From Candidatus Heimdallarchaeota archaeon (GTDB taxonomy: Archaea; Asgardarchaeota; Heimdallarchaeia; JABLTI01), in contig JAUWKS010000002.1 of NCBI GenBank assembly GCA_030614005.1, positions 90,001 to 122,000 on the forward strand: DNA of 32,000 bases, read 5' to 3'. This document shows positions 3,522-32,000 of the stretch, in pieces. Under the pieces are notes generated by a model. That model made no database searches. It was not told the origin of the DNA and saw only the letters and a program-made list of their open reading frames with translations. Position 1 is the first letter of the stretch; each line of letters opens with the position of its first letter. The translations under genes were made by a program, and so were the position numbers.

Positions 3522-4805
3522 TTACTCGCCTTTTAAGTCAGCTGTCTTTAAACGTACATTGCAGCTTGGACAAACGCCACGTACTTTAACAAATTCGAGA
3601 AAGTGTGAATAATGAGCAGGTTTCTTACAATTGGGGCACGTAACATATGCATCCCCTTGACTGATTTGACGTTTACAAACAATACATTTGTCTGATAAGT
3701 CCTCTGCTGCAATAGATTCTCCTTTATATGGCTCTGAAGCAATTTGTGAACCTATTCTGCGCAGAGAATTTACATAACTTTGTCTTTTAATGGGATTATT
3801 TGTTGAATCTGCTGCTTTATCATAATAAGTAATGGCATCAGAGGTACGTTTGCTTTTTTCCAAAACAGAAGCGATTTCTGCATATAAATCAGAAATGGCA
3901 ATCCCAGGGAAACTGGAGGATATTGCATCAATCATATCTTCAGCATCATCTACTCGTCCTTTTGCTGCGTATTCTCTAAAACGATCAAGTAAATCGAATT
4001 TTTCTAAATGTTGTTCTACTCGTAAAGCATCTTTTGGATTATTAGATCCATCATAGGCCTTTACTGCTTTTTTAAATGCCGTTTTAGCAGCTTTAATGCG
4101 ACCTTCTGACAAAGCTATTTCACCCTGACGTTCTTGTGAAACACCAGCTAAATCTTGTCGTCCCACTGAGTTATAAATATCCGCTGCAACTTGTGGTCGC
4201 TCTATAGCTCCATATTCGTGAGCAGCTACTGCAAGGATAGCATCTGCTTCCTCGTCTAAGTTAATGGCTCGGAGAAGATCACCAGCGATGGTATACTTCC
4301 CTCTATTAAAAGCATATTGAGCTAATCTTCTTACAGTACCAGCTCGAAGATTAACGGGTATATTATTTGATACAATATTAATTGCTCGAGAAACGTCATC
4401 TGCATCAATATACATTTTCACAACATCAAAATATGCATTTGCAAGTAAAAAGGAAATTTGAGCTCTCGCGGGATTAGAGCGTTCAAATCGTCTCCCTGTT
4501 TTAATCCAAAAAAATTGAGCCCCTTGTTTTCCCAATTTTTGAACTATCATTGATTCATACATTGGTCTTTTTTCAGGAGGCATTTGAAAGTAGAGGTCAG
4601 CGACTTCAGTTTGTTTATTCTGTTTCAAATACAAGCTTCCAGCAGATTGAAAGTCACCATATTCAAGGTAAGTTTGAATTGTTTTTATTGGTGCTTTCTT
4701 ATCTTTTTTCTTCTTTCGTTTAAGGGAAGCAATAATAATAATCAATAGCGCAATGCCAAATATAATAACAAATATAATCCAAGGGTCCGTTTTTTATCCC
4801 GCCAT
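3522..4805 (-). CDS. Membrane-anchored TPR/alpha-solenoid protein with C-terminal RING-like Zn finger; in-frame TAA at codon 4
   Basis: C-terminus CIVC..CPNC..H..H..CPSC. ATG at 4805 is in frame with the listed ORF (MAG*KTDPWIIFVIIFGIALLIIII) and completes a TM anchor. Confidence 0.7.
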
Positions 4806-4934: not shown

Positions 4935-6752
4935 CTATTTGTGTGCAAGATTAACAAATATTTTGCTCTTTGTTGTTTTATCTACTCTTACAAAACCATA
5001 TCTCTCAAATTGTACTATGGTATCTGGTTTTAATTTTGCAACACCAGCTTCAGCATAACCAGTTTCTATTTTCAAACTATTTTCATTGAATGTATCATCA
5101 ATGAATAAGACACCAGGTACCTTTACCTCAACTACAACAGTTTGTTTAGCATCTGCTACTACCCATTGAATTTTAGGGCCAGGTTTTAATTCTTCACCAA
5201 AATATTTTCCAATGCAATGGATAGGGAATTTCTTCAGAAAAGGTTTCAATTCTTCACTGATTTTCAGAGAATCAATTTTATTGAGATTAATTTTCTTTTT
5301 AGTTAATTTGACATTAAAAAGATCTTTAAGTCTAAATTCATCATTTACTTTCATATTCTCATAATCAGATTTGTCTATTAAGAAAATATTATTTGGTTTA
5401 ATTTTCCTAAAACCTCTCTTAGCATCATCGGGATGTAAAGGCATTTTGCAGATTCTGTTTTCAGGAGCACCCTCAATATGGATAACAATTGGTTCAGAAA
5501 CGAAGAAATAGCGATCAGAAGCAGCATCGATTATTTTCCTATTTGTAGCTGTTAGGAGGCTCCAATCGATATTGGTTGGTTGAGTAGTCATTCCAACTTC
5601 TTTTATAACTTGTTTAATAGCTTCAGGAACAATACCTCTTTTCTTCATTCCTTTAATTGTTACTAAACGAATATCATCCCACCCCTCTACTTTTCCTTCT
5701 TCTACTAAAGGCTTAATTTTTCTCTTGGAAGCAGGGCTGCCTAAAACATTGAATCGCGCATAGTGGAAAATGTTAGGATGGGGTATTAAACCTAATAATT
5801 CACGTATTTTATTTTGCAATTCTATTCTGGTATCAAATTCAGCACTGCGTCCCACATGTGTTATTCCACACAAATTATCCTCAACTGCAACAGCAAAATC
5901 GTAAAGTGGCCATACTGAATATTTCTCTCCTTGGATACAATGATCTCCCTTTCTAATTGCGAATATAGCTGGGTCTCTCATAACTGCATTTTTATTCTCC
6001 ATATCGCCTCTTACACGTAAGACTATTTCACCTTCATTATAATCTCCTGTGAGCATTTTCTTCCAATCGTTCATTGTATCGGCCGAACTTTTCTTAGAGT
6101 GGTTGCAAGATTTCATTTCTCCACGCATTTCTCTCATTTTATCAACGGAACAGGTGCACGTGTATGCATAATTCTTTTCAATAAGTTCAACTGCTTTTTC
6201 GTAAAAAATCGGCATGTCATTTGAAACAATTACTTCTTTAGTTGGATCTAACCCCAACCATTGCAAATCTTCTCGATGAGCATCCATGTATTCTACTCGC
6301 TCTTGTTTTGGATTTGTATCTTCAAATCGCAAAACAAATGTTCCATGATATTTCTTCGCATAGTAATCGGCAAAGAAAGCAGTATAAGCATGACCTAAAT
6401 GCATCTCACCATTTGGTTCGGGGGCATAACGAGTTACTACTTTGCCATCTACTGCATCTTTTAATGGTGGTAACTCTCTTGATCTTTTTTGAGATTCCTT
6501 TTTTGTAAGTAATTCCGGTGCAATTTTAGAAAGACGTTTTTGTTGCTCTTCAACTGAAAGAGCATTGATTGTTGGAATTATTTCTTCAACGAGATCTCTA
6601 ATTTGTTTGGAAAGCTTTCTTAGTTCAACATGAGTAGCCATTATTTTTTGCATAACCGATTTCTCATTTGCAGAACCATCATGGTGAACAGCATTTTCCA
6701 AACCATATTTAGTAATTAAATGTCGAGCAGTTTCAATATCCTTATTTGACAA
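4935..6752 (-). CDS. gltX: Archaeal glutamyl-tRNA synthetase
   Basis: TRYAPEPNG, HLGH (HIGH), LRFEDTNP, WPLYDF, degenerate KMSKS (PASKR), QFERYGF. Confidence 0.96.
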   Translation of the reverse strand: MSNKDIETARHLITKYGLENAVHHDGSANEKSVMQKIMATHVELRKLSKQIRDLVEEIIPTINALSVEEQQKRLSKIAPELLTKKESQKRSRELPPLKDAVDGKVVTRYAPEPNGEMHLGHAYTAFFADYYAKKYHGTFVLRFEDTNPKQERVEYMDAHREDLQWLGLDPTKEVIVSNDMPIFYEKAVELIEKNYAYTCTCSVDKMREMRGEMKSCNHSKKSSADTMNDWKKMLTGDYNEGEIVLRVRGDMENKNAVMRDPAIFAIRKGDHCIQGEKYSVWPLYDFAVAVEDNLCGITHVGRSAEFDTRIELQNKIRELLGLIPHPNIFHYARFNVLGSPASKRKIKPLVEEGKVEGWDDIRLVTIKGMKKRGIVPEAIKQVIKEVGMTTQPTNIDWSLLTATNRKIIDAASDRYFFVSEPIVIHIEGAPENRICKMPLHPDDAKRGFRKIKPNNIFLIDKSDYENMKVNDEFRLKDLFNVKLTKKKINLNKIDSLKISEELKPFLKKFPIHCIGKYFGEELKPGPKIQWVVADAKQTVVVEVKVPGVLFIDDTFNENSLKIETGYAEAGVAKLKPDTIVQFERYGFVRVDKTTKSKIFVNLAHK

Positions 6753-6832
6753 TGGAAGAACACCTAGGATGAATTTTTGTCTAATTATGAATCGTAAACT
6801 TTGTGTAATCCTTTAAATATTTCCTCTCACTA

Positions 6833-6975
6833 GCTGTTTCTATCACCAAACAATTTCTATTTGTTTTTCTACTCTGCCTATGCTTCAAGCCTTCTCTTCT
6901 TCGAGGTGGTTGCCCTCTCCGAGTTAGCATTATCATGATCAGCGAAGGAATGCATCTCAGCATCCATAGCAGTAT
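6833..6975 (-). ncRNA. Predicted structured RNA overlapping the 3' end of the Cas5-HD gene (copy 1)
   Basis: Shares a 15-nt motif (6950-6964) and a 10-nt motif (6833-6842) with 31787-31909, and has similar predicted stems formed by different sequences. Confidence 0.6.
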
Positions 6976-8017
6976 CAAGCTCTTCTCTTTTACTTGCCGA
7001 TAATGAGATATTTCCATTTTCCATTATTAATCTCCCATCATAATAATCATTTATAGCCAAATTGACCATAATTAAGAGATGGTTTCGTAAAGAATTTTTT
7101 CCATAACGCATTGACTCAACTATTCGGTTCAATTCTTTTGAGTGATAGATATGGGTATATAACTTCAAATGATTGTCTTGACTTTCTTCAAGTTCCTTTT
7201 TTAATTTTTGGAAATTAATTGAACCATTTTGTTTATCATAACGATAAGAAGTCATAGATGGTTTTTTTCGGGTGATAGAAGAAGCAAGTTTATCATAATG
7301 CTTCAAAATTGGTAAGAAAGGATTTGTGCTTTCTTCTCCGTTGTGGTGGTTCTTACAGGCTTCTTTAATCTCCTCATCCTCAATATCTATCCGTTGATAG
7401 ATTTTGCTTTGATGTTTCTCGGTATGAACGAAATCGTGAAGCATGAGAGCAATGAGTAATTGTTGTAATTCCTCGGGATAATCTGCTCGTATACCAGCTC
7501 GAATCTTGAGTTTTTTGTAGGGCCAAGTTTGCTTGCAAGCAGTACATCGTTTGAGTTTAGAAACCTTATCGTAGATAACCGTTGTGTTTTTACATTGTGG
7601 ACATTTCTCAGATAAAGGAACAGTTACAGTAGGAAACGTTTTTGTAAAATGCTTAATTTCACATGATTCCCAAATGACTCTACCATGCCCTTCAGCAGTC
7701 TTTGAACCCAAAAATGATTTCTGGAGAAATGGTTCTATTTTCCTCTTTAATTGTTCTTCTGAAAAACCCACGCAACTGATTTTAACAAATCCTCGGAATC
7801 CTCGTAAGACAGTAGGATACTGATTCTTACCATAGACCAATTTACCTACAGTTGTAAAGAGAGGTTTGTTTTCCTTCTTTGGATCTCCGACCACTTTTAC
7901 CAGACACCCATACTTCCAATATGTTGATTGTGAAACAATAACAGGATTGATTATTCGACCTACTAAGGTAATAATTTTTTTTTGTTTTAGTTGTAAGCTT
8001 TCCATTCGTCTAAACAC
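6878..8017 (-). CDS. Cas5-like RAMP fused to Zn ribbon and Cas10-type HD nuclease domain
   Basis: RAMP Gly loop FLGSKTAEGHGRV; CPQC..CTAC; LMLHDFVH, NHH and YDKLASSITR. Overlaps the cas7-like stop; ATG at 8005 is a plausible start. Confidence 0.72.
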   Translation of the reverse strand: MFRRMESLQLKQKKIITLVGRIINPVIVSQSTYWKYGCLVKVVGDPKKENKPLFTTVGKLVYGKNQYPTVLRGFRGFVKISCVGFSEEQLKRKIEPFLQKSFLGSKTAEGHGRVIWESCEIKHFTKTFPTVTVPLSEKCPQCKNTTVIYDKVSKLKRCTACKQTWPYKKLKIRAGIRADYPEELQQLLIALMLHDFVHTEKHQSKIYQRIDIEDEEIKEACKNHHNGEESTNPFLPILKHYDKLASSITRKKPSMTSYRYDKQNGSINFQKLKKELEESQDNHLKLYTHIYHSKELNRIVESMRYGKNSLRNHLLIMVNLAINDYYDGRLIMENGNISLSASKREELDTAMDAEMHSFADHDNANSERATTSKKRRLEA

Positions 8018-8919
8018 TCCTGTAAGAGATGATTTTGATTCTCAATTTGTTCAACTTCGAGGATAGCGATTTTTCCGTTAATCTCTGTACCTAACTTTCG
8101 TTCTTGGAAAATGCGCTCAAAAGTTATGTCTTTTATTTCTAATCGACCATAACCACTATTTTCTCCTTTGCCTAAATGAGTGATACCAAAAATTCCCTTA
8201 ACTAATAATCCAAGCAACCACTCAGGTAATTCTTTGGTAAATTCTACATAAAATTGAAATTCACCAGAGAAATATTGTTCAGAGAAATCTTGTAATGATT
8301 TGCCGTCTCGTCTTGCAGAGTGACGATTCTCAGTAGAAACATGAACAAAAGAAAGTCCTTTTTGAGCAGTAATTTTGTTTAGTGATTTATCAGTTTGGAT
8401 AAGCACATCACTCCACACTTTGATTAAAGATTTTTCTCCGAGCATACCAAAGAGTCGTCGAATAGCACAGGGACTTTCTCCACACTTTCCCATAAGGTGT
8501 TCATTTTCAAGAAGTGTAGGCTCTCCAGTCCCTTTGAATTGTTCTTTCATAGTTGGAGAACAATAACTTATTCCTTTTCCATGTAGAATATTCATGATAC
8601 TATGTCTAAGAGCTCCTCGTATACCTTTCACTGCTCGAGAGTTTCCATACTCCTCTTTTAGAATTGATACTTGTATTTTCGCATCTTTCTTCTTCTCAGA
8701 AGCTTTGGCTCTTAGCTCTTCTAAATCATCAAGAACTATATCTTTGTTTAGAATGAGAAATTCTTCCAAGTCAGACACTTTAACGTTTGTCTTTCCTTGA
8801 AATTGGTAAGGTATCTCTCCACCCTTCATAAGAAATGAACTTGATCCACTACTACCGTTTAGTGTTTTTGTAAAGTATGCATAGACTCTTATTGTTAACC
8901 GATTAAATGTTTGTGTCAT
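7987..8919 (-). CDS. cas7: Cas7-family RAMP (Csm3/Csf2-like)
   Basis: VKGIRGALRH, C..C Zn motif CGESPCAIRRLFG, EQYFSGEF and Gly loop LGKGENSGYGRLEI. Start placed at ATG 8919 (MTQTF) because 8920-8973 looks like promoter. Confidence 0.82.
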   Translation of the reverse strand: MTQTFNRLTIRVYAYFTKTLNGSSGSSSFLMKGGEIPYQFQGKTNVKVSDLEEFLILNKDIVLDDLEELRAKASEKKKDAKIQVSILKEEYGNSRAVKGIRGALRHSIMNILHGKGISYCSPTMKEQFKGTGEPTLLENEHLMGKCGESPCAIRRLFGMLGEKSLIKVWSDVLIQTDKSLNKITAQKGLSFVHVSTENRHSARRDGKSLQDFSEQYFSGEFQFYVEFTKELPEWLLGLLVKGIFGITHLGKGENSGYGRLEIKDITFERIFQERKLGTEINGKIAILEVEQIENQNHLLQECLDEWKAYN

Positions 8920-8926
8920 GATAACT

Positions 8927-8962
8927 AACCAATTAACCATATAGTCAACCATATATTTAAGC
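8927..8962 (-). promoter_or_regulatory. TATA-like box and direct-repeat operator upstream of cas7-like gene
   Basis: Minus strand reads TTAAATATAT about 35-40 nt upstream of ATG 8919. Plus strand has AACCATATA at 8935 and 8947 and AACCAATTA at 8927. Confidence 0.5.
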
Positions 8963-9011
8963 ATTTTGTACATAAGAAAATTAAAGAATAATCAAAGATA
9001 CAGTTAATTAG

Positions 9012-9200
9012 ATGGTACAAATGGGTGAAGCAAAGAAACCGACTATAAAATTCAAACGAAAAATCGTTGGAAATACGGGTGTAACAAGAATAACAATACC
9101 TAAAGAAATTACAAACGCATTAGACATTCACTTAGGAGAATATTGGGAAGTTTATGCTGAGGATAATGATACGATAATAGTGAAAAGAATCAAAGAATGA
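9012..9200 (+). CDS. AbrB/MazE/SpoVT-family DNA-binding protein
   Basis: RKIVGNTGVTRITIPKEITNALDIHLGEYWEV...IIVKR matches the swapped-hairpin pattern. Confidence 0.85.
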   Translation: MVQMGEAKKPTIKFKRKIVGNTGVTRITIPKEITNALDIHLGEYWEVYAEDNDTIIVKRIKE

Positions 9201-9220
9201 TAATGTTAGGTTCTCAATAG

Positions 9221-9290
9221 TATCCCATGTGGAGCGTCGTGAATCACTGTAAGTGATGAACAGCGACTGCATGAGTCTGCTCCGAGCAAG
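9221..9290. ncRNA. GC-rich structured element downstream of abrB-like gene
   Basis: GGAGC/GCTCC closing stem (9231-9283) with inner hairpins ATCAC-TGTAA-GTGAT and GACT-GCATG-AGTC, in AT-rich intergenic DNA. Confidence 0.4.
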
Positions 9291-9344
9291 AGCATTGGTT
9301 TTCTTCTTTGTAAATATCAGAATTAAAAAAAATCTTTGTTGGCC

Positions 9345-9638
9345 TTAATCTTTCCCAGCGGTTCCGATAATAGTACCACAATTTGGACAATAAATAAGGA
9401 TAGCCTTAGACATCCCTCGTTTTATTGTATCTCGAAGCATATTATGTAATACCGCTGTTTTGAAACCCTCTTTTTCTATCTCAGCAATTTTTTTCAGATG
9501 TTCTCCAATAGAATTCTTTCCATTAAAATCAGTTTTTTCAAGAGCTTGCCTAAGAGTTGATTCATCTGCTACACCTTGATAAGCAAAAATAGTGTTCCCA
9601 CATTCCGGACATTTTGGATCTTTCATAATTCTCACCAA
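9345..9638 (-). CDS. Small split Zn-ribbon protein
   Basis: CPEC at the N-terminus and YCPNCG at the C-terminus. Confidence 0.65.
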   Translation of the reverse strand: MVRIMKDPKCPECGNTIFAYQGVADESTLRQALEKTDFNGKNSIGEHLKKIAEIEKEGFKTAVLHNMLRDTIKRGMSKAILIYCPNCGTIIGTAGKD

Positions 9639-9693
9639 TTTAAATTATAAGGAATAATTAGATTAATTCTCTCTAAAACATTTTCCTTTCCAT

Positions 9694-10595
9694 CTATGGT
9701 ATTAATCCAATGCCCCAACCAATAAAACCGCCTATAACTGACATGATTGCTCCAACAATTATTTGCTTAACAACAGGCTTTTGTCTCACCCACCAATTAA
9801 ATTTGTGAGGAGATGTTACCGCATCTACTCTCTCTTGTACCAGGTCTTTTTTAACTTCATTTAACACATGCTCATCAACTTTAACACTAATGTCTGTAAT
9901 ATTGAGGTTCCTTAAGGCAATGATTGATGCCATTGTAACTAATTGCTGTCTTCTCTAATACTAATATCCCTCAAACATTTAACAGCCATTTCTCCACCTA
10001 TTTGTCCTAAAGCAAAAGTTGCCCAAGCACGTACACGAATATTATTATCATAAACAGCCAGTATTTCAATACGTTTTACAGCTTTTTGTGCAGTTAGATC
10101 TCCTAATGTCCATATAGCTTCTTTTCGTTTTTTCACCCTTAAAGAATCAAGTTGCGAAATTGATTTATCTATACGCTCTTCTTTCTTAATTATTGGTAGT
10201 AGGTTAACATTAAAGAAATTTTGAAAATCATCATATCCTAATTTGTTACTTAAACTATCCAAAGAAATTATAACCATATCTTGAATAGCTTTGTCCGGAT
10301 CATCATCTTTCATTTCAAAAAGTTTGATGAAAAAAGATGTTTGATTTTTCACATCGAGATTGGTGCTTGCCAACACTGTTAAGGCAGTTTTTCGAATATT
10401 TGAATCCTCATTATCTAATCGGTTCAATAATTGATGTATTACCTCATCTTTTTCTTTTTCAGTTAGAGCTTCATTTTTTAATTTCTCGCCCAACATATAT
10501 GTCCCAGAATCTAAACTTGCAAATTCTCCTGCGGCTAAAAGTAATAAAAATCCAAGTCCAACTATTAAAATCGTTTCAAGCACCATAAAATACAC
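9694..10595 (-). CDS. HEAT-repeat membrane protein, split by a frameshift near 9940
   Basis: HEAT repeats (EDSNIRKTALTVL, DNNIRVRAWATFALGQI). Adding one T joins EDSN to LVTMASIIALRNL, a further HEAT repeat. Hydrophobic segments at both ends. Confidence 0.6.
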
Positions 10596-10862
10596 CTATT
10601 TCCATTTTAAATTTTAAATTAATAAAACCTAAAAATGTTTCCTTGAAGAGAATTAAACAAATATTAATCATTTTCTCTTTCTTCTTTTGTTTCTTACAGA
10701 AGAATTAGGAGGCACAAAAATTCTTTGTAAAAGTGATTAAATGACAGAATCACCTGAAGAATTCATGACAAAGAAAAAAACAAAGACGAAAAAATTATAG
10801 GGAACTTTAGAATTTATGCTGTCTTTTTATCTTAACCTTCTAACTCTTTAGTGTGATATTTT

Positions 10863-11081
10863 ATGAAAAAAAGATCTACTTTTCCACCCACAACCATACA
10901 AAGGATCATAAAAGAGATAACGGGTATGATGGTCTCACAAGAACTGGCAGAATACGAAGCAGAAGTACTACTGAGAATTCTAACAAAAAGAACACTAAAA
11001 CTATACGCAGAACAACACAAAAAGAAAATATTGAAAAAAAAGATGGCTCAATTACTCGACCAATTTGAACCACCATATTAA
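10863..11081 (+). CDS. Divergent archaeal histone-fold protein
   Basis: FPPTTIQRIIK..G..VSQE..AEVL..AEQHKKKIL aligns with the HMf-type pattern LP.API.RIIK..VS.DA..AKVL..AKHAGRKTI. Confidence 0.55.
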   Translation: MKKRSTFPPTTIQRIIKEITGMMVSQELAEYEAEVLLRILTKRTLKLYAEQHKKKILKKKMAQLLDQFEPPY

Positions 11082-11101
11082 ATCATTTTTTGTTTATCTA
11101 T

Positions 11102-12049
11102 TCACGTTGTCCGGTGATGATAGAAACCCATCTGTTCGCGAAGATCAGAAAGGGCAGTGAAATGAACGACTTGGCTAAGATTGAGAGATAGCTCGGGATG
11201 GGAAGGATCAGCCTTAGCACGAAGATTATATGCTTGAATGGCATGAAGAGCCTTGTCACGGTCACGCTTAAAGGGAACAAGGACAACATAACGACCGCGA
11301 CCACGCAACTCTTTTTCAGCGGTCAAGAGACGTTTGAGAAAATCGCTCTCATTATACGCTTTACTGCCGGTGTGAACCTCAAACCACCAAAGAGTGCTAC
11401 CACCGGTATGATCAACGCGAAGGCAATTATCAACAACAAAATCACCACTGCCGTCCCAATGGGGAAAACGCCAAAGATTATCAGAAGCATGAAAGAGACT
11501 GCCCTCAAGACCGGCGCGAAGAACACGAAAAGAGAGCTCGGCAAAAGCGTCGTGAGGGGGAAACCGCGCACGAAAATTGCGGGGAAGAAGGGGATAATGC
11601 TCACGAGGATAACCAAACCAATAGGCAAAACGAACACCAGTACAAGGCATGGGATAGGCACGAACAAGACCTAAGCGAAAGAGACGAAGAGAACCACCCA
11701 AACCAGAAAAATACTCTCTATCAGCATAGCACTCGCCAGTGGTCAAATGAATGCGAAGACTATCATCACAATAACGATCAAGAAAAGAGCCAAAAAATTT
11801 CCTGAGAAGAAAGAGAAAATCATTAATCGAGAAAAGGGGCTGAGGAGAACCAAAAGGATTGGGAGTAAGAGATTTCAAGAAACGGCGCTCGGACTTTTCT
11901 AAAAGATGGAAGGGAAGATTATCAAAATTAAGAGTGGAATGAGAAGGCCAACCGGAAGGAAGAACAGGGGGAAGAGAAGATTTGACACGCTTGACCAAGG
12001 AAAACAACAACAATAAAAAATGAAAAAGAAAATATAAAAAGACCAACAA
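11102..12049 (-). CDS. Replication-relaxation-like PD-(D/E)XK protein, likely MGE-derived; start uncertain
   Basis: PHD..AEL, GDFVVD and WWFEVHTGS motifs followed by YVVLV; visibly higher GC than the flanks. Confidence 0.5.
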   Translation of the reverse strand: MLVFLYFLFHFLLLLFSLVKRVKSSLPPVLPSGWPSHSTLNFDNLPFHLLEKSERRFLKSLTPNPFGSPQPLFSINDFLFLLRKFFGSFLDRYCDDSLRIHLTTGECYADREYFSGLGGSLRLFRLGLVRAYPMPCTGVRFAYWFGYPREHYPLLPRNFRARFPPHDAFAELSFRVLRAGLEGSLFHASDNLWRFPHWDGSGDFVVDNCLRVDHTGGSTLWWFEVHTGSKAYNESDFLKRLLTAEKELRGRGRYVVLVPFKRDRDKALHAIQAYNLRAKADPSHPELSLNLSQVVHFTALSDLREQMGFYHHRTT

Positions 12050-12200
12050 GTAGCTAAGAAAAAAAGACTCTAAGAAAAGAACTTCTTAGGGACATAGGAA
12101 CAGAAAGAAAAGGAAGGGAAAAAGACTGAAAAAAGGGTAAAAAAGAAGCTAAGAGAGAAGGAAAAAACTTAAAGGAAGGAATTAAGGAAAGGAAGAGATA
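12050..12200 (+). other. Strongly purine-skewed low-complexity tract
   Basis: Almost entirely A/G on the plus strand (e.g. GAAAGAAAAGGAAGGGAAAAAG). Confidence 0.7.
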
Positions 12201-13288: not shown

Positions 13289-13993
13289 TTACTTGAGTTC
13301 TTTTAGAATTATTCTCGCATCTACTCCGTATACCCCATCTTCATTAGCTATTACAGGATTTAAGTCAATTTCTTTGATATATTTGTCTAAATCAATAGCT
13401 AATTGGGATACTTGAACAATCATTTCAGCTAATGCATCTCTATCTACTGGAGGTAATCCTCTAAATCCATTGAGCAATTTTTGTGTTTTAATTTCACCTA
13501 TCAGACGCAAAGCACGTTCTTTTGTTGTTGGACACACTCTAAATGAAACATCACCTATTGCTTCAACTAAGATCCCTCCAATGCCAAATGCAACAACAGG
13601 ACCAAAAGTTGGGTCGATATTCATTCCGATAAGAATTTCGGTGCCTTTCTTCACTTGCTTTTCAACAAGAATACCAACTAAGTCATGTTTTTTCAAACGT
13701 GATTCCATATCATTAAATTGGTTTTTTAGAGCTTCGTCAGAATCTATGCCTATTATAACTGCTTTATAGTCTGATTTATGTAGAATTTTTGGTGACATTG
13801 CTTTAATTACAACAGGGTAACCAATTTTTTTTGCAAAGGTTACAGCTTCATCAACATTTTTCACTAGTTTATTCGGTGGGAAAATAACACCAATGCTTTC
13901 AAAAACTTTGAGTGCCTCATGCTCTAAAAGGAAATAACGTCCTTCGTTATAAGCTGTAGCAAAAGGTTCTGGTATTTTATTTGTATCTACCAT
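13289..13993 (-). CDS. acdB: ADP-forming acetyl-CoA synthetase beta subunit (ATP-grasp)
   Basis: GYPVVIKAMSPKILHKSD, DPTFGPVVAFGIGG, EIDLNPV, VDARI. Confidence 0.93.
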   Translation of the reverse strand: MVDTNKIPEPFATAYNEGRYFLLEHEALKVFESIGVIFPPNKLVKNVDEAVTFAKKIGYPVVIKAMSPKILHKSDYKAVIIGIDSDEALKNQFNDMESRLKKHDLVGILVEKQVKKGTEILIGMNIDPTFGPVVAFGIGGILVEAIGDVSFRVCPTTKERALRLIGEIKTQKLLNGFRGLPPVDRDALAEMIVQVSQLAIDLDKYIKEIDLNPVIANEDGVYGVDARIILKELK

Positions 13994-14007
13994 TTTTTTT
14001 CCTCCAA

Positions 14008-15435
14008 TTATTTTGGCGTCTCCCTAATTACTGGCAATTCTTGCCCATGTGTTCGCAGATAATCTGCGTATTCAGTTAATATACCAATTCCATAAACAGA
14101 TCGTGCCGGTGTTGGGTAAAATGGAAAATTCATTTGCTCCAATTCCTCTCGAATATAAAGAGCTTCTTCACCACCTATCGCACAGAAAGTAACCGTTTTA
14201 TTGATGCTCTTTGCATATGGTTTCAAACCTTCCATTAATTCCTTTACATTAATTGCGGGAGGAGTTGGTATGATAATGAAAGTAATTGAGTCAACCGCAG
14301 GGTCGTTTATTGTTTGTTCTAAAGCATAAAGATACTCTTTTGCCGTTGCACTTCCTGTTAAATCAATAGGATTTGCAACTGAGAAATATGGCGGTAAATC
14401 TTCCTTCATTTTCTTTTCAATTTCAGGGGATAAATCAGCCAGCTCTAAACCTAAAAGTCCAATAGCATCTGAAGCCATCACTCCTGCACCTCCTCCATCA
14501 GTAATCACAAGAACTTGATTTCCTTTTGGTAGCAATGTACTATTGAATGCTTTCATACAATCAAATAGATTATCCCAAGTATATGCTCTTATAATTCCTG
14601 CTTCTTTGAAAAGTGCCTCTGTAACATCATCATTAGCTGCTAGAGAAGCGGTATGACTGGCAACAGCTCGTGCTCCGGCTTCTGTTCTATTAGCTTTAAT
14701 TGCAATAATCGGTTTCTTTAGTGAAACTTTTCTTGCGGTTTCTATGAATCTTCGTCCATCTTTAAAACCTTCAAGGTAAATAAGAATAATCTTTGTTTCA
14801 GGGTCTTCGCCAAAATATTCTAGTATATCAGCCTCATTGATATCTGAGGCATTCCCAAAGCTAACAAATTTTGAGAGATAATTACCTTTCCCTAAAGAAC
14901 CCATAATATCTAGGAATGCAGATCCAAATGCTCCGCTTTGTGATAAAATTGATATCCCTCCTTCTGTAGGTCTTTTTAGTTTTTCTTCTGGCAAGAAAAC
15001 CATATCTAAACCTCTTTTTGGATAGAATAAACCAATACAATTTGGTCCTATAATTCTAATATCATGTTCTTTGGCAATTGTATCTATCTGTTGTTGTAAT
15101 TTTATTCCTTCTTCACCTATTTCCTTAAAACCACCGGATATTATCGTAACGGATTTTACTCCCTTTTTAGCGCAGTCTTCCATTGCAGCAGGAACATATT
15201 TTGCTGGAATGATAATTGTTGCAGCTTCTACAGGTCCCTCTACTTCTTCTAAGGTTTTGTAAACAGGTTGTCCTAGAATCTCTCCTCCTTTATGATTGAC
15301 TAAGATTGTTTTGCCATCAAAATTATTTATGAAATTTTCAGCAATAACAAAACCTGGTTTGTCCTTAGAAGCAGATGCACCAAAAATAGCCATACTCTTC
15401 GTTTGGAAAAATTTATGCAAAGGATTTTCAGTCAT
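14008..15435 (-). CDS. acdA: ADP-forming acetyl-CoA synthetase alpha subunit
   Basis: RIIGPNCIG, SQSGAFG, SFGNASD, ASHTASLA (phospho-His), NPIDLTG. Confidence 0.94.
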   Translation of the reverse strand: MTENPLHKFFQTKSMAIFGASASKDKPGFVIAENFINNFDGKTILVNHKGGEILGQPVYKTLEEVEGPVEAATIIIPAKYVPAAMEDCAKKGVKSVTIISGGFKEIGEEGIKLQQQIDTIAKEHDIRIIGPNCIGLFYPKRGLDMVFLPEEKLKRPTEGGISILSQSGAFGSAFLDIMGSLGKGNYLSKFVSFGNASDINEADILEYFGEDPETKIILIYLEGFKDGRRFIETARKVSLKKPIIAIKANRTEAGARAVASHTASLAANDDVTEALFKEAGIIRAYTWDNLFDCMKAFNSTLLPKGNQVLVITDGGGAGVMASDAIGLLGLELADLSPEIEKKMKEDLPPYFSVANPIDLTGSATAKEYLYALEQTINDPAVDSITFIIIPTPPAINVKELMEGLKPYAKSINKTVTFCAIGGEEALYIREELEQMNFPFYPTPARSVYGIGILTEYADYLRTHGQELPVIRETPK

Positions 15436-16503: not shown

Positions 16504-17418
16504 TTAATCCATAGATTTCCTCAACACTGCAACGATTTGATCAGATTCAATAAGCATTTGACCTAGTTTTGGCCGTTTCTTGCTTAAGCCAACAAAGGTA
16601 CACTTTCCATTTATTTTCTTAAATACAATGAAAGTATTCTTTTTCAGTTGTAATATTGTGGAACTTATTTCATCTCCAGCATCAAGTTCTTCAGCAATTC
16701 GCTCAACTGAACCCAAGATAACATTTGCAGAAAAGTCCACTAAGGGTGGAAGTTCTCCTACTTCATATATGGCCAATCCATCTTTAGAATAAACAGCAAG
16801 ACCACTATAACTGGAGTCTTTCACAAAGCGAGTTAGATATTGTTTAATCGAAACTTGATCATCCATTTCTTTCATCAGCATATCTTTAAATGCTAAATAA
16901 GTTGAAGCGTCAAAAATACTCGTTTCATGGATAAAGATATCTAAACCAGGAGTAATAAAGAGATTTTTTGTTGCACGAATAATATCAGAAGCATTATCAT
17001 TTTCAGCGAGTAAATCTACTTTGTTAAGGAGAAGAAATACCCGTGCATCTTTACTGAATTTATGCAAGTGTTGTACAAACACATCAAACCAATATTTAGC
17101 TATTGAGTAGCTTGATTGTTCGGTAACATCTAGTACAAAAACTAATGCTTGAACATGTTGATATATAGGGTCGCTATCACGATTGATTACGTCTTGGATA
17201 TTATTCTCGCCACCACACGGGAGAAACAGTACACGTTGTTGTAAAACATCTCGTAAAGTATTACCTATATCTAATCTTTCTATTGCAGCTTTCATCTCCT
17301 TGGGAGGATTATTATTAACAACAACAGCTTTGATTGTTTTTACACCTGCACCAGGTAGACCTGTTATTAAAATTTTTTTGGGATCGTCTTTAGAAACGGA
17401 CAAGGCATTCACCATCAA
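16504..17418 (-). CDS. Rag/Gtr-like small GTPase fused to C-terminal roadblock domain
   Basis: KILITGLPGAGVKT, PCGGE, LVFVLDV, NKVD and ETSIFD; C-terminal ~115 aa has the roadblock pattern (GLAVYSKDGL). Confidence 0.8.
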   Translation of the reverse strand: MMVNALSVSKDDPKKILITGLPGAGVKTIKAVVVNNNPPKEMKAAIERLDIGNTLRDVLQQRVLFLPCGGENNIQDVINRDSDPIYQHVQALVFVLDVTEQSSYSIAKYWFDVFVQHLHKFSKDARVFLLLNKVDLLAENDNASDIIRATKNLFITPGLDIFIHETSIFDASTYLAFKDMLMKEMDDQVSIKQYLTRFVKDSSYSGLAVYSKDGLAIYEVGELPPLVDFSANVILGSVERIAEELDAGDEISSTILQLKKNTFIVFKKINGKCTFVGLSKKRPKLGQMLIESDQIVAVLRKSMD

Positions 17419-17574
17419 TAAGCGGATAAATTATTCTTTAATCTCTTTATTTTAAGCTTCTTTCCTAAAAAAACATTATTACTGAGGTAAACAAAAACCA
17501 ACTTTATTTGACAAAAAATAAGGAAAATAGATGTTCAGCGTTAAAAAAGCTGAACAAAACAAAAAGTGAATGAA

Positions 17575-18186
17575 TTACGTTTCTTTTTCTTTGCGTAATT
17601 CTTCAATTTCTTTAGCTAATTCAGATGAGCGGATATCAGGAGTAGGCAATCCGGTTTCAGCACCCAATCCAATTTCAGTGCCTATTTCACCCATTATTTT
17701 GTCTACATCAGTTTCATCCACATCCAATGACATCATGTCCTCAAAACCTTCATCCATCATATCAGTGGTCATTTCAATTCCTTCAAAGGAGTTTTCTAAA
17801 TCACTAATTAAAGAAGAAATTTCAGGTGCATTTAGTGTAGCATTTACTTCACGAAGAGCTCCAGCCATTCCTTTCAGTTCACCAGCGAGTTGTTGAACAG
17901 AATCAGCTTGTTCTAATCTGAAAATTATTCCTTCAATACGGGTAGTTAAACGAGTGTAACTGTACACCCATTTACGATTTCTAGCTACATTAGAAGCATA
18001 AAGTCGTGCTTGATCCATTAATCCCTTACGCATAGCTTCACGTGTTTTACGTTGAATCTTAGCTTCATCATTTTCAAGTTTCCTTGATGTTCGGGATAGT
18101 CGCTTATTTACCATTTTCAAATCAATAATATAATCTCGAGTAGATTTACCGCCGCCTAACCAGCGAGCGAATTTTCCAAATACCAT
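17575..18186 (-). CDS. ESCRT-III protein, Vps2/24/46 class
   Basis: Snf7 helical pattern (LKMVNKRLSR..G.MDQARLYASNVARNR..RIEG..FRLEQA) with acidic tail; likely start MVFGKF at 18186. Confidence 0.88.
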   Translation of the reverse strand: MVFGKFARWLGGGKSTRDYIIDLKMVNKRLSRTSRKLENDEAKIQRKTREAMRKGLMDQARLYASNVARNRKWVYSYTRLTTRIEGIIFRLEQADSVQQLAGELKGMAGALREVNATLNAPEISSLISDLENSFEGIEMTTDMMDEGFEDMMSLDVDETDVDKIMGEIGTEIGLGAETGLPTPDIRSSELAKEIEELRKEKET

Positions 18187-18486
18187 AGTTTTTTCCAACC
18201 TTTTTTTCTGGTAACACATTATTTTACATTCACTAAAAAAAAGCTTTCTAAATAACAAAAATGCTTCTTTTTGGCAATCTTTACGTCTTTAAGATTCGCT
18301 TTAGCTATTATTAACATAATAACATATTTTTAACTTTTGATTTAGCACTAGTGAATTACCTTGAAAAACCAAGTCTTTGGAGTTCTAAGGAAGTTTATCA
18401 GAACTAAAATTTCTTTTTTTTCGAATGCAAACCTTTTTTAGTTTTTTTTACCTCCTTGTCTATATACTAACTATAGTTCGGAGCTG

Positions 18487-23467: not shown

Positions 23468-24850
23468 TTGAGAAGATGGAAAATATATTTAATATGTAAT
23501 ACAATACAAAGTATCAGGGATTCGAAATTGGGATTGAGAAAACTAAATAGTACTGCAATAGTAGTAGTGATTGTATTAATTATCTTTTCAATAACTGGAA
23601 TAGCTATTTTCTTAGGGAATAGAAGTAAACCAATCACAATTATTGAAATAAATCATGTGAGCGATTTCTATCAAAGATATCATTTTCCTGGAAAAGGAAC
23701 GGAAGAAGAGCCTTACATAATTGAAGGATATAGATTGTCGGGTAATAAATACCATAACATCAAAATCTCATTAATAAAAGAGCATTTTATCATTCGAAAT
23801 TGTGTTGTGGAAAATTCAAATAAAGGAATTGAACTTATTGGATGTGAAAACGCAAAAATTATCAATAATACTATCAGAAACAATGATTTTGGAATTTGGA
23901 ACGGTGAGGGTATAATTAAAGGTAATTTGTTTAGTAATAATTTCAGTCCAATTGCCGGTTCTGTGTGTTGCAGAATACAATCAAATATCTTTAACAATAG
24001 CAAGTCAAATCCGAAGGGATGGAATGATGGAATCAGATTTTCTTCCTATGAAACAATAATTGAAGACAATATTTTCAATTCATTTGGCAAAGCGATAGTT
24101 TTGGATCGCGGAAGAGTAATTCAAGTAAAAAATAACTCGTTTAGGAATTGTGATTTTGGTGTTATTGTTAATGATGTTACGGACTGTAAACTAACATTTA
24201 ACACAGCGATAAATTGTACCACAGGGTTTACAATCATTCGAAGTGAAGAGATAGAATTATTACATAATAATTCAACAAAAAACAGAGAGAACGGATTCAA
24301 TATCGATACTGCTGAAAACTGCCTAATAGAAGGAAACAATGGATCAGGAAATGGAGACTATGGCATCTTGATGAAACGGATGACAAATGGGGATATACGA
24401 AATAATTACTTTGAGAGGAATAATGCAAGCGGTTTGTGTTTGTGGGTAGGGGATTATTATTCCATTAATAATAACTCTTGTAGCAATAACAACATAGGGA
24501 TAGAATTGAGCTGTGTAAATAATACTTCAATAAACTATAACAAAATTGAAACCAATAAAGAATACGGAATTGTAACAAGCGGTACAAATGCAACAATATG
24601 GAATAACAATTTCATAAACAACAATAATGACAATAACCCAACAATTACTTCGCAAGCGAAAGCAATAGTGAATGGAACAGGAATTTTTGATGAAAAATAT
24701 TATGGTTATCCTGAATGGTACAAGAAACAAGAAGAGAGAGGAAACTATTGGTCTGAATTAGTTTGGGCTATTGGAATAGAATATTTGATAGACCCAGGAA
24801 ATTGTACAGATAGCTATCCGCTTGAAAAACCAATAATGATAGATATATAA
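23468..24850 (+). CDS. Membrane-anchored right-handed beta-helix (NosD/CASH) protein, paralog 1
   Basis: N-terminal TM, G.GT...PYIIEG, Asn-rich parallel beta-helix repeats, GNYWSE..DSYPL; true start may be slightly downstream. Confidence 0.85.
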   Translation: MRRWKIYLICNTIQSIRDSKLGLRKLNSTAIVVVIVLIIFSITGIAIFLGNRSKPITIIEINHVSDFYQRYHFPGKGTEEEPYIIEGYRLSGNKYHNIKISLIKEHFIIRNCVVENSNKGIELIGCENAKIINNTIRNNDFGIWNGEGIIKGNLFSNNFSPIAGSVCCRIQSNIFNNSKSNPKGWNDGIRFSSYETIIEDNIFNSFGKAIVLDRGRVIQVKNNSFRNCDFGVIVNDVTDCKLTFNTAINCTTGFTIIRSEEIELLHNNSTKNRENGFNIDTAENCLIEGNNGSGNGDYGILMKRMTNGDIRNNYFERNNASGLCLWVGDYYSINNNSCSNNNIGIELSCVNNTSINYNKIETNKEYGIVTSGTNATIWNNNFINNNNDNNPTITSQAKAIVNGTGIFDEKYYGYPEWYKKQEERGNYWSELVWAIGIEYLIDPGNCTDSYPLEKPIMIDI

Positions 24851-25440
24851 AATCTCTATTATTTCATTAGTTTTTTTAGTAGATACTGTAAAAGTAAAGC
24901 TTCAAATGAACCACCTGTACAGTGACTTTTTTTTGTCAGTTATTTCAAATGAGTAACATAAGAATAAATTTCCTAAAAAAAGGAAACATTTATAACATAA
25001 TTTATGTACTTAATTATTGCTCTTTTTGAAAAGGAGCTGAGAGTTGGGAAATATGAAAAGACAAAAAAAACAGATAATTGTGGGATTATTACTTTCAATA
25101 ATCATTATTGGAATAATGAGTCCTTTAATTTCAAATGTTCGAGCAGCAAGTTATGCACTAGGTTACGTGAAAGATGATGGAACACGTGCAGGTATTGCTA
25201 GTGTTTATGTGACTGTTTATGGAAGATACGTGGATTCATATGGAAGGTTAAAATCCTTCTCAAGGAGTGGGTATACTAATTCATATGGTCGTTATTTGAT
25301 TACTCTCCCCAGTACAACCGTTTACACAAATGGATTAAGGGCTTCAAAAACAGGTTATGTTACTTACGATGGTAGTGTTGTAAATCCAGTTTATTTATCT
25401 GCGAAAGCTATCTCACTGCGCTTTACTGGTAAAGTTTTAG
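24780..25440 (+). repeat. Segmental duplication copy 1 (beta-helix 3' end, intergenic region, secreted-protein 5' end)
   Basis: Near-identical to about 28020-28690; boundaries approximate. Confidence 0.9.
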
Positions 25441-26668: not shown

Positions 26669-26780
26669 TGTACTTAATAGTTTGTTATATTTGATAGCAA
26701 ACTATTTTTTTCAATTTCACAAAAAAAAACAAATAAGATAAATTTTGGAAAGAGAATAACATTATATCTGAGGGATAGAA

Positions 26781-29898: not shown

Positions 29899-30058
29899 TT
29901 AAGATTTTTTGCTAAATTTCTAGCAAAAACATTCTCTTTTTTTGGATTAGATGTGTGATTTAAGCATTAGTTTAAATAATGAAAATTTATAACAATCTGG
30001 AAAACATTGGGAATGAACTACCTTTGGATTTTTAACATATTATTATATAAAAACAGTA

Positions 30059-31766: not shown

Positions 31767-31909
31767 ATCAGAATCCCATTCGGAGCGCTGTTTCTACTTC
31801 TTAACAGTTTCTTATTACTGTCTTAACTACTAGCTATGTTAACGCTTTTTTCTTTTCGCTACTCATGCTAGTAATTCGATGCATCTCAGCATCTCTGATA
31901 GTGTTAAGA
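31767..31909 (-). ncRNA. Predicted structured RNA, copy 2, with 20-nt variable 3' segment
   Basis: GATGCTGAGATGCAT at 31879-31893 and TAGAAACAGC at 31787-31796, as in copy 1. Confidence 0.6.
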
Positions 31910-32000
31910 TCTTCATCTTCTTCATCTATCGATGTTGAGACATTTCTTACTAGGTATACTTTTTCTCTGCTAATTTTCAACCATTGATTGTAGTAGCTAG
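31834..32000 (-). CDS. 3' end of a probable second Cas5-HD-like paralog (partial; not in the ORF track)
   Basis: My translation SYYNQWLKISREKVYLVRNVSTSIDEEDEDLNTIRDAEMHRITSMSSEKKKALT* aligns with DYYDGRLIMENGNISLSASKREELDTAMDAEMH of 6878-8017. Confidence 0.65.
   Translation of the reverse strand, partial: SYYNQWLKISREKVYLVRNVSTSIDEEDEDLNTIRDAEMHRITSMSSEKKKALT

What the first reader, a model, noticed from the sequence alone, without database searches (positions are those of the whole stretch)
6833..9200. Array-less two-gene RAMP system: Cas7-like plus Cas5-Zn-HD, with divergent AbrB regulator
Seen: two overlapping RAMP genes with Gly loops and an intact-looking HD nuclease. I found no cas1, cas2, cas6, cas8, cas10 or CRISPR array in the 32 kb. 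Established: derived array-less RAMP modules exist (haloarchaeal HRAMP; Asgard CRISPR-derived variants have been reported), so the proteins alone may not be new. Inference: a minimal class-1-like effector needing a non-CRISPR guide.
Basis: partly seen in the sequence, partly recalled or inferred. Interest (0 to 1): 0.82.

Follow-up and report, generated by a model that had tools for sequence, protein, structure and literature searches.

The report
Array-less Asgard Cas7/Cas5-HD module
This is one of seven copies, in a Heimdall-group Asgard archaeon, of the catalogued but untested 'ARAMP' CRISPR-derived gene pair (a Cas7-like protein plus a Cas5-like domain fused to a Cas10-type HD nuclease), and every copy ends in a conserved folded RNA-like element that could be the RNA partner this system was thought to lack.

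Summary
Window 7987-8919(-) encodes a Cas7-fold RAMP. Window 6878-8005(-) encodes a fusion of a single RAMP/RRM domain, a lineage-specific Zn ribbon and an HD domain whose best fold match is the HD domain of Cas10/Csm1. The 3.6-Mb assembly (90% complete) shows no Cas1, Cas2, Cas6 or Cas10 and no CRISPR array, yet holds seven paralogous copies of the pair. The pair matches the published description of ARAMP (Asgard RAMP; Makarova 2020, read here only through two later papers).

What the literature I could read does not mention is a ~180-nt element at the 3' end of gene 2 (window 6830-7011). It is conserved at nucleotide level (86-92% between paralogs, against 60-80% for the coding DNA). It is read in different frames or lies behind stop codons, it has compensatory hairpin changes and sense-strand G-U pairs, and it ends exactly at a 5.4-kb indel boundary. 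A different, repeated 123-nt structured element flanks gene 2 in another Asgard family.

Earlier agents of this scan reported companion RNAs of ARAMP on other DNA. No RNA run holds this sequence, so expression and binding are untested.

The parts
7987..8919 (-). Gene 1: Cas7-like RAMP (310 aa from ATG 8919; the longest ORF starts at 8973). Has a KGxRG motif, a Cys/His cluster (C138, H159, C164, C169 in 328-aa numbering) and the G-rich loop GxGxNSGYGR.
6878..8005 (-). Gene 2: RAMP/RRM domain (about 7631-7990), CxxC...CxxC Zn ribbon (about 7520-7609; subclade-specific insertion) and Cas10-type HD domain (about 6995-7477). The last ~45 codons are not conserved as protein.
6830..7011 (-). 3' element 'E'. 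An AUCUCA:UGAGAU helix encloses a variable hairpin, followed by the near-invariant core GAUGCUGAGAUGCAU, three short helices, a variable A-rich-loop hairpin and a terminal GGUGAUA. It overlaps the end of gene 2 and runs 37 nt past its stop (to 6841).
9012..9200 (+). AbrB/SpoVT/MazE-fold small protein, divergently transcribed 92 nt from gene 1. As an ORF it stands beside 2 of the 7 modules.
9202..9302 (.). Left element 'LE': a 75-nt core that is 88-95% identical between modules M1-M3, directly after the AbrB stop. A fourth copy sits beside another AbrB gene next to a TnpB gene on contig C7. The strand is not settled.
6841..12200 (.). 5.36-kb segment absent from two sister genomes, where the GluRS gene and the glycosyltransferase gene (window 12203) are direct divergent neighbours. 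Its left junction is the last base of element E.
31784..32000 (-). 3' end of gene 2 and the E element (31784-31943) of a second, short-RAMP module copy (M5) that continues beyond the window.

Best explanation
The locus is one copy of the ARAMP core, a type III-derived, array-less effector.

Shown here:
- Gene 1 has a Cas7 fold.
- Gene 2 joins a Cas5-like single RRM to an HD domain of the Cas10 kind, with all metal ligands invariant.
- The two genes are fixed neighbours in about 44 of 47 loci.
- The genome has no arrays and no Cas1, Cas2, Cas6 or Cas10.
- A structured nucleotide element is attached to the 3' end of gene 2 in every copy of this genus.

Inferred:
- Several Cas7 subunits and one Cas5-HD subunit assemble on an RNA, as Csm3 and Csm4-Cas10 do. 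The HD domain then acts as the nuclease (DNA or RNA) when the complex is engaged.
- With no crRNA source, the RNA is most likely locus-encoded. The best candidate is element E, co-transcribed with gene 2 and serving as scaffold, fixed guide or autoregulatory binding site.
- In the M1-M3 subclade the AbrB protein probably represses the divergent promoter.
- The biological role is most likely defence or conflict between mobile elements, not housekeeping.
For: Fold and sequence:
- Cas7: Foldseek E 1e-6 to type VII Cas7, and 44 hits at E<=1e-3 that are all CRISPR effector-complex entries, their lengths fitting Cas7-type chains. Csm3 profile hit at E 1.2e-4.
- HD domain: VIA Z 8.4, rmsd 3.7, 147 residues aligned, 20% identity to StCsm1 6ifk_A residues 2-231. 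Z 7.9 to 6mua_A.
- The motif order HD..H..HH..D..H is invariant.
- N-terminal domain: Z 7.7-8.3 to chains 9g9a_G and 7xfz_B, whose lengths fit Csm4 and Csf3.

Linkage: the two genes are adjacent in nearly all 47 loci, and all 7 own-genome copies are paired.

Binding model: ipSAE 0.52 against a best control of 0.00. This mark was reached by 51/78 solved complexes and 2/108 mismatches, but at <=0.60 only by 5/78 solved complexes and by all 4 passing mismatches. The runs agree in >=67% of contacts and the partner pLDDT is >=51. This is weak support, and likeness to solved Csm3-Csm4 complexes may explain it.

No CRISPR machinery was found.

Element E:
- 86-92% nucleotide identity between paralogs, against 60-80% for the rest of gene 2.
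- The core is read in frame 0, 1 or 2 in 19, 3 and 1 copies. A stop precedes it in 7 of 23 copies, and the gene-2 stop wanders over 180 nt.
- AF2 pLDDT is below 50 for the residues it encodes.
- Helices are 94-100% paired against 2-68% when slid, with compensatory changes and frequent G-U pairs on the sense strand.
- A terminal hairpin with unrelated stem sequences occurs in about 25 of 30 copies.
- It is found only in Heimdall-type DNA.
- It is co-distributed with gene 2 across 11 genomes of the genus.

Parallel case in family f20: a 123-nt element with 12 covarying pairs flanks gene 2, with 23 copies in one genome.
Against: - Nothing shows that E is transcribed as a separate RNA or is bound by the proteins.
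- E ends in a Shine-Dalgarno-like GGUGAUA that sits 5-9 nt before the start codons of diverse downstream genes. That also fits a cis-acting intercistronic mRNA element.
- E's last base is an indel junction, which fits a DNA-level boundary or recombination site.
- The covariance model of the f20 element does not find E or LE, and the E model does not find the f20 element. One common RNA partner for all ARAMP is therefore not established.
- Z 7.9-8.4 lies within the range that the tool says unmatched models often reach.
- No invariant acidic residue stands where Csm3 has its catalytic Asp, so target-RNA cleavage by Cas7 is doubtful.
- This copy lies among housekeeping genes, not in a defence island.
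Confidence: 0.5

Rival explanations
1. The module is cargo or machinery of a mobile element, and E (with LE) is a DNA-level end or recombination site, recognised for example by the LAGLIDADG-type or Cas1-like/PD-(D/E)xK proteins found beside other copies. It would not be an RNA partner.
For: - The genome holds seven copies in unrelated contexts.
- Many relatives carry truncated copies, while E stays intact beside them.
- Homology between paralogs M1-M3 ends sharply at LE and at the last base of E.
- A 5.36-kb presence/absence polymorphism has its junction exactly at the end of E.
- tRNA genes directly follow E in several loci.
- A LAGLIDADG_3+HTH gene is divergent in 17 of 47 loci. A cassette of a 672-aa protein, wHTH proteins and a PD-(D/E)xK nuclease is present in about 7.
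Against: - The 5.36-kb segment holds no recognisable integrase or transposase and carries unrelated genes.
- It has no clear terminal inverted repeats or target duplication.
- Outgroups do not fix the polarity of the indel.
- Abundant G-U pairs on one strand favour RNA.
- E is not part of the nearby IS200/IS605 element.
Confidence: 0.2
2. E is only a cis-acting part of the operon mRNA (3' stabiliser, processing site or translational coupler for the next gene), and the protein pair acts without any dedicated RNA, for instance as a guide-less abortive-infection nuclease.
For: - E ends in an SD-like motif 5-9 nt before the starts of diverse genes.
- In family f20 the elements flank gene 2 like UTRs.
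Against: - Cas7 and Cas5 folds are RNA-binding backbones in every characterised relative (established knowledge of class 1 effectors).
- In this window no gene follows E for 88 nt, yet E is fully conserved.
- Solo copies of E persist without a downstream partner.
Confidence: 0.15
3. Toxin-antitoxin-like pair: the HD nuclease is a toxin held in check by the AbrB/MazE-fold protein.
For: - The small protein matches both MazE_antitoxin (21.8 bits, below the cut-off) and AbrB.
- It stands directly beside the module.
- The same AbrB+LE unit stands beside a TnpB gene elsewhere.
Against: AbrB is found as an ORF at only 2 of 7 modules and is not among the recurrent neighbours in 47 loci. The Cas7 partner is unexplained.
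Confidence: 0.07
4. The complex uses crRNAs from CRISPR arrays that lie elsewhere or were not assembled.
For: The assembly is 90% complete, and repeats often fail to assemble (notices).
Against: No array and no Cas6, Cas1, Cas2 or Cas10 were found in 3.62 Mb. ARAMP loci are described as array-less in general.
Confidence: 0.05

Closest known systems
ARAMP (Asgard RAMP) systems, Makarova et al. 2020, CRISPR J 3:156. The original paper is not held; it was read only as summarised in PMC8730458 and PMC12669027.
   Same: Asgard host. Highly diverged Cas7 and Cas5 homologues derived from type III. No array and no standard adaptation module. Other copies in this genome sit near a PD-(D/E)xK nuclease and a large protein that earlier notes of this scan call a diverged Cas1.
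   Different: This copy has neither the Cas1-like nor the PD-(D/E)xK gene. Its nuclease is an HD domain fused to the Cas5-like domain, whereas the summaries name HNH and PD-(D/E)xK as the usual nucleases. The summaries mention no associated RNA and state that interaction with RNA is unknown.
HRAMP (haloarchaeal RAMP), Makarova et al. 2019
   Same: An array-less miniature type III derivative with Cas5 and Cas7 homologues plus nucleases.
   Different: Different host group. Described as only distantly related to ARAMP. Not compared by sequence here.
Type III-A Csm effector (Csm3, Csm4, Cas10/Csm1)
   Same: Gene 1 resembles Csm3 (Cys cluster, G-rich loop). The gene 2 N-terminus resembles Csm4-like RAMPs. 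The gene 2 C-terminus resembles the Cas10 HD domain, with 20% identity over 147 aligned residues.
   Different: No Palm/cyclase domains, Cas11, Csm5, Cas6 or array. The Cas5-like part is a single RRM of about 120 aa. There is no invariant Asp at the Csm3 catalytic loop.
Type IV-C (Csf1 with a Cas10-related HD domain)
   Same: A reduced type III derivative in which an HD domain of the Cas10 kind survives on a small 'large subunit'.
   Different: IV-C keeps separate Cas5, Cas11 and a large subunit. Here the HD domain is fused to the Cas5-like domain. Membership was not tested by sequence.
OMEGA systems (TnpB/IscB omega RNA): resemblance in layout only
   Same: A structured RNA-like element overlaps the 3' end of the nuclease gene and ends at the boundary of an inserted segment.
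   Different: The proteins are unrelated. E lies outside the IS200/IS605 copy nearby. No guide function has been shown.

Membership tests
ARAMP | Cas7-like RAMP protein | tested here: met
   PF03787 above the cut-off, Csm3 profile hit and Cas7 fold matches.
ARAMP | Cas5-like RAMP protein | tested here: inconclusive
   Residues 10-129 are a RAMP/RRM. The best rows are chains of Csm4/Csf3 length (Z 7.7-8.3), but Cas6, Cas7 and Cmr rows lie within 1-2 Z units.
ARAMP | No CRISPR array and no standard adaptation module (Cas1-Cas2) | tested here: met
   in a 90%-complete assembly.
ARAMP | Asgard archaeal host | tested here: met
   Named homologues and pattern hits are almost all Heimdallarchaeota/Asgard MAGs. 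The window carries Snf7 and Gtr1/RagA genes.
ARAMP | Associated nuclease, most often HNH or PD-(D/E)xK | tested here: inconclusive
   This locus has a fused HD domain instead. PD-(D/E)xK genes (PF12705) stand near three other copies.
ARAMP | Distinct diverged Cas1 in most loci | tested here: inconclusive
   Absent from this locus. The 672-aa proteins near copies M4-M6 give no Cas1 signal with Pfam, PDB phmmer or the Atlas.
Cas10 (type III large subunit) | N-terminal HD domain with permuted motif order | tested here: met
   Fold match to Csm1 residues 2-231. The invariant order is HD, H, HH, D, H.
Cas10 (type III large subunit) | Palm/cyclase domains with GGDD | tested here: not met
   The folded part ends at about residue 341. 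Nothing follows but the E-encoded tail. TIGR02578 finds nothing in the genome.
Csm3/Cmr4 (catalytic Cas7) | Conserved Asp in the loop after strand 1, which cleaves target RNA | tested here: inconclusive
   No invariant acidic residue lies in residues 37-60, and the region is deleted in the short-RAMP subfamily. No residue-level structural superposition was made.
Canonical CRISPR-Cas | Repeat-spacer array supplying crRNA | tested here: not met
Rfam RNA families (for elements E and LE) | Match to a curated covariance model | tested here: not met
   None at gathering score. Only a chance-level malK-II hit elsewhere at E 3.1.

The most novel reading that the evidence does not exclude
Element E, and the unrelated-looking 123-nt element of family f20, are the dedicated non-CRISPR RNAs of ARAMP. 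Each would be a locus-encoded scaffold whose adjoining variable flank, or the element itself, directs a Cas7/Cas5-HD nuclease. ARAMP would then be an RNA-guided system without arrays or adaptation. The 2025 classification paper says that such a system, if RNA-dependent, would merit its own CRISPR-Cas type.
Probability: 0.25. Interest if true: 0.85.

Novelty: new member of a known kind. Interest (0 to 1): 0.6.

Why it matters
ARAMP and HRAMP are the most reduced known descendants of type III CRISPR effectors. The 2025 classification states that it is unknown whether they bind RNA at all. This locus gives a compact test object of 2.5 kb: two proteins, an optional AbrB gene and two conserved non-coding elements. 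It also gives a precise candidate RNA (6830-7011, minus strand), so the open question can be settled with one co-expression and pull-down experiment. If the RNA is the partner, it would show how a class 1 backbone can work without arrays, and it would offer a very small Cas7-based programmable scaffold. If the element is instead a DNA boundary, it bears on the proposed link between Asgard Cas1 homologues and unknown mobile elements.

Tried and rejected
- **Expression:** no RNA holder is listed among public runs for 6700-9400. Only DNA metagenomes from cold-seep and marine sediment hold it, so expression could not be examined and read laying was not used.
- **Rfam:** nothing for the window.
- **Gene 2 by sequence:** the profile finds nothing in the PDB, and NCBIfam and PADLOC find nothing.
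- **One RNA family across lineages:** motif-level likeness was seen (pairwise z 1.8-4.3). However, the f20 covariance model finds neither E nor LE, even with filters off, and the E model finds no f20 copy. A motif scan found no such element in families f4 and f22. I do not claim homology.
- **E as part of an IS200/IS605 omega RNA:** rejected. The repeated IS end stops 35 nt after the TnpB stop, and E lies 425 nt after it.
- **E as a protein-coding C-terminal tail or a small ORF:** rejected on frames and stops. A 93-aa 'family' of ORFs is merely the translated f20 element.
- **The 672-aa neighbour of other copies as Cas1:** not verifiable with Pfam, PDB phmmer or the Atlas.
- **Single-sequence folding:** E and LE are no more stable than shuffles (z -0.5 to -1.5). 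Only comparative evidence supports structure.
- **Polarity of the 5.36-kb indel:** not resolved, because more distant relatives lack the GluRS-glycosyltransferase adjacency.
- **Original papers:** the ARAMP and HRAMP papers are not in the library.
Full report
**What is there.** Two genes lie on the minus strand. Homologue alignments put the start of gene 1 at ATG 8919 (310 aa) and that of gene 2 at ATG 8005 (375 aa, identical to cluster representative P0001), a 19-nt overlap. A 62-aa AbrB-family gene is transcribed divergently from 9012 (TIGR01439, 29.7 bits against a cut-off of 28.3). The rest of the window is ordinary Asgard chromosome: GluRS, family B DNA polymerase, Snf7, a Gtr1/RagA-type GTPase, glycosyltransferases and ADP-forming acyl-CoA synthetase subunits. 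It holds no cas gene, tRNA, Rfam family or tandem array.

**Gene 1.**
- It passes Pfam RAMPs (32.6 bits, cut-off 22.1) and weakly matches PADLOC Cmr1 and Csm3 models.
- A profile of 34 homologues hits M. jannaschii Csm3 (4qts_C, E 1.2e-4). The hit covers the Cys cluster followed by FG and the G-rich loop.
- The AF2 model (pLDDT 83.9, pTM 0.78) finds 44 PDB chains at E<=1e-3. All are entries of type VII, IV, I-A and III effector complexes or of Cas7-11, with chain lengths that fit Cas7-type subunits.
- No acidic residue is invariant where Csm3 carries its catalytic Asp, and that stretch is deleted in the short-RAMP paralogs.

**Gene 2.**
- No library model reaches its cut-off, and the family profile finds nothing in the PDB by sequence.
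- The AF2 model (pLDDT 82.4) resolves into two domains.
- Residues 181-346 align with the N-terminal HD domain of Cas10/Csm1: 6ifk_A Z 8.4, rmsd 3.7 A, 147 residues, 20% identity, chain residues 2-231; and 6mua_A Z 7.9.
- Residues 10-129 align with RAMP subunits. The best rows have the length of Csm4 (9g9a_G, Z 8.3) and Csf3 (7xfz_B, Z 7.7), with Cas6, Cmr and Cas7 chains close behind.
- These Z values are in the range the tool warns about. What adds weight is the invariant H194-D195, H202, H224-H225, D242 and H313 in 45 homologues, with the HD dyad at the start of the domain as in Cas10.
- The CxxC...CxxC ribbon (residues 137-166) is an insertion present only in the subclade of this copy.
- The protein has no Palm domains, and residues 342-379 are modelled with pLDDT below 50.

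**Family, copies and neighbours.**
- Both proteins have tens of homologue clusters. Nearly all named ones come from Heimdallarchaeota or 'Asgard group' MAGs.
- In a sample of 300 genomes of the phylum, 37 carry gene 2. They are concentrated in three families (8/10, 17/21 and 5/5), often with several copies and many truncated remnants.
- The window's own assembly (3.62 Mb, 126 contigs, 90% complete) has seven pairs. Four have a long RAMP (M1-M4) and three a short RAMP (M5-M7); M5 starts at the very end of the window.
- The order RAMP then gene 2 holds in about 44 of 47 loci from 20 genomes.
- Recurrent neighbours are a divergent 524-aa LAGLIDADG_3+HTH protein (17 loci) and a cassette of a ~672-aa protein, wHTH proteins and a PD-(D/E)xK nuclease (about 7 loci, including M4-M6). 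Otherwise the neighbours are housekeeping genes such as EF-2.
- AbrB stands as an ORF beside only M1 and M2.
- The genome yields no Cas1, Cas2, Cas6 or Csm1/Cas10, and a k-mer scan finds no array. The only PF03787 hits are the four long RAMPs.

**Comparison with the literature.** PMC8730458 and PMC12669027, with its supplement, describe ARAMP as follows. It comprises miniature, array-less, type III-derived modules of Asgard archaea with diverged Cas5 and Cas7. It is usually associated with nucleases (HNH, PD-(D/E)xK) and in most cases with a distinct Cas1. [quoted passage not shown] The present pair fits that description, so it is a member of a known kind. I could not read the original 2020 paper, so I cannot say whether the Cas5-HD fusion or any RNA is described there. 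A full-text search for ARAMP and HRAMP found no experimental work.

**The 3' element (E).**
- Paralog comparison showed that the last ~45 codons of gene 2, plus 37 nt beyond the stop, are far more alike than the rest: 86-92% against 60-80%.
- Among 23 distinct copies with an upstream protein anchor, the near-invariant core GATGCTGAGATGCAT is read in frame 0, 1 or 2 in 19, 3 and 1 copies.
- In 7 of those copies a stop codon precedes the core, and the gene-2 stop lies anywhere from 90 to 267 nt after the anchor. The conservation is therefore not at protein level.
- Exact-pattern scans of 185,579 species genomes and of the metagenome collection found the element only in 11 and 16 stretches. All named ones are Heimdall-type.
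- In a 27-sequence alignment the proposed helices are 94-100% paired, against 2-68% when the 3' partners are slid. Compensatory double changes occur in five helices, and G-U pairs that would be A-C on the other strand are frequent.
- A terminal hairpin with unrelated stem sequences and an A-rich loop is present in about 25 of 30 copies.
- A covariance model finds the element at the 3' end of gene 2 in all module types of the genus, including weak hits in the short-RAMP copies. Its counts per genome follow those of gene 2: 8 in this genome, 0 in the one genome that lacks gene 2. High-scoring copies survive beside truncated genes. Two solo copies exist in this genome.
- The element ends in GGUGAUA, a match to the anti-Shine-Dalgarno end of 16S rRNA (my own knowledge). 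In many loci a start codon of some unrelated gene, or a tRNA gene, follows within a few bases.

**Boundary evidence.** In the two closest relatives (GluRS 89-90% identical), GluRS and the glycosyltransferase of window 12203 are divergent neighbours about 105 nt apart. Homology with the window runs through the intergenic spacer and stops at window 6840, one base before the end of E. It resumes at about 12201. So 5.36 kb are present here and absent there: E, both RAMP genes, AbrB, LE, three small genes, a histone-like ORF, an odd 315-aa ORF and a purine-rich tract. Outgroups do not tell insertion from deletion. Homology between paralogs M1-M3 is shorter (2.46 kb, from LE to E) and equally sharp.

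**The left element (LE).** Directly after the AbrB stop lies a 75-nt core that is 88-95% identical in M1-M3 (window 9202-9302). A fourth copy sits next to another AbrB gene beside a TnpB gene on contig C7. Its fold is not significant on its own. An earlier follow-up of this scan reached the same description.

**A parallel in another family.** In genus g33 of family f20, a 123-nt element lies after gene 2 and, where the two genes do not overlap, also between them. One locus holds three tandem copies, and one 4.2-Mb genome holds 23 copies, mostly in pairs 1.1 kb apart. Its consensus structure has 25 pairs, 12 of them with compensatory changes and many with U-G on the sense strand. I saw shared short motifs with E, but covariance models do not cross-detect. 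I therefore treat them as two lineage-specific elements with the same linkage.

**Mechanism.** What is shown: the folds, intact HD ligands, obligate pairing of the genes, absence of CRISPR machinery, and a linked structured element. What is inferred: assembly of Cas7 subunits and one Cas5-HD on an RNA, by analogy with Csm. The complex prediction gives only weak support: 0.52 against controls of 0.00, a band in which passes are more often wrong than right unless likely beforehand, and likeness to solved Csm3-Csm4 complexes may explain it. Also inferred is the use of E as that RNA. The rivals are E as a DNA boundary of a mobile cassette, E as a mere mRNA element, AbrB-HD as toxin-antitoxin, and hidden arrays. 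They are listed with their evidence in the fields above. I put 0.5 on the effector-plus-locus-encoded-RNA picture as a whole, and about 0.25 on E being a true guide or scaffold.

**Relation to earlier notes of this scan.** First-stage notes on other windows of this genome described the same pairs and pointed me to the Cas1-like/Cas4-like cassette. I could confirm the PD-(D/E)xK gene but not the Cas1. After I had found E and the f20 element, a word search showed that follow-up agents had reported companion structured RNAs of ARAMP in other genomes and LE in this window. The scan has therefore seen this before on other DNA. Those notes are not independent evidence.

Noticed in passing
window 11100-12200: A purine-rich tract (GC 0.445, AT skew +0.37, against about 0.33 GC around it) overlaps a 315-aa minus-strand ORF. 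The N-terminal half of that ORF is low-complexity and its C-terminal half looks like a real domain. There is no Pfam hit. It forms the right end of the 5.36-kb segment that is absent from sister genomes.
   Followed up: partly
window 10863-11081 (+): A 72-aa ORF reads to me like an archaeal histone fold, but there is no Pfam hit at E<=1e-5, so this is unverified.
   Followed up: no
G000 C7:20754-20854 and flanks: A fourth copy of the LE element, with its own AbrB-like gene, stands next to a TnpB (IS200/IS605 orfB-like) gene instead of a RAMP module.
   Followed up: partly
L010:11711-13282, L011:10384-11958 and 13790-15361, L012:6216-7820: A multi-copy ~524-aa LAGLIDADG_3+HTH_3 protein family is the most frequent neighbour of the modules (17 of 47 loci) and is always divergent. 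Its role is unknown.
   Followed up: partly
L042, L048-L050, L053, L056, L059 (genomes G041, G058): A 123-nt structured element flanks gene 2 on both sides, with distinct 'upstream' and 'downstream' subtypes and up to three tandem copies spaced about 230 nt apart. Each copy is followed by about 100 nt of unique sequence that ends in a hairpin plus a T-run.
   Followed up: partly
L030/L073/L079, L031/L067, L028/L069: tRNA genes begin or end within a few bases of the 3' end of element E in several related loci.
   Followed up: no
window 16504-18258 and 3522-4745: Eukaryote-like signature genes: Gtr1/RagA-type GTPase, Snf7 (ESCRT-III), and a TPR protein with a prokaryotic RING finger.
   Followed up: no
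window 23468-31411: A run of paralogous secreted-looking proteins on one strand. Three of them carry beta-helix/NosD domains.
   Followed up: no
G000 contig ends (C5, C11, C35, C50, C79, C116, C117, C124): The last ~170 nt of an IS200/IS605-type tnpB gene plus 35 nt recur at many contig ends. This repeat breaks the assembly.
   Followed up: no
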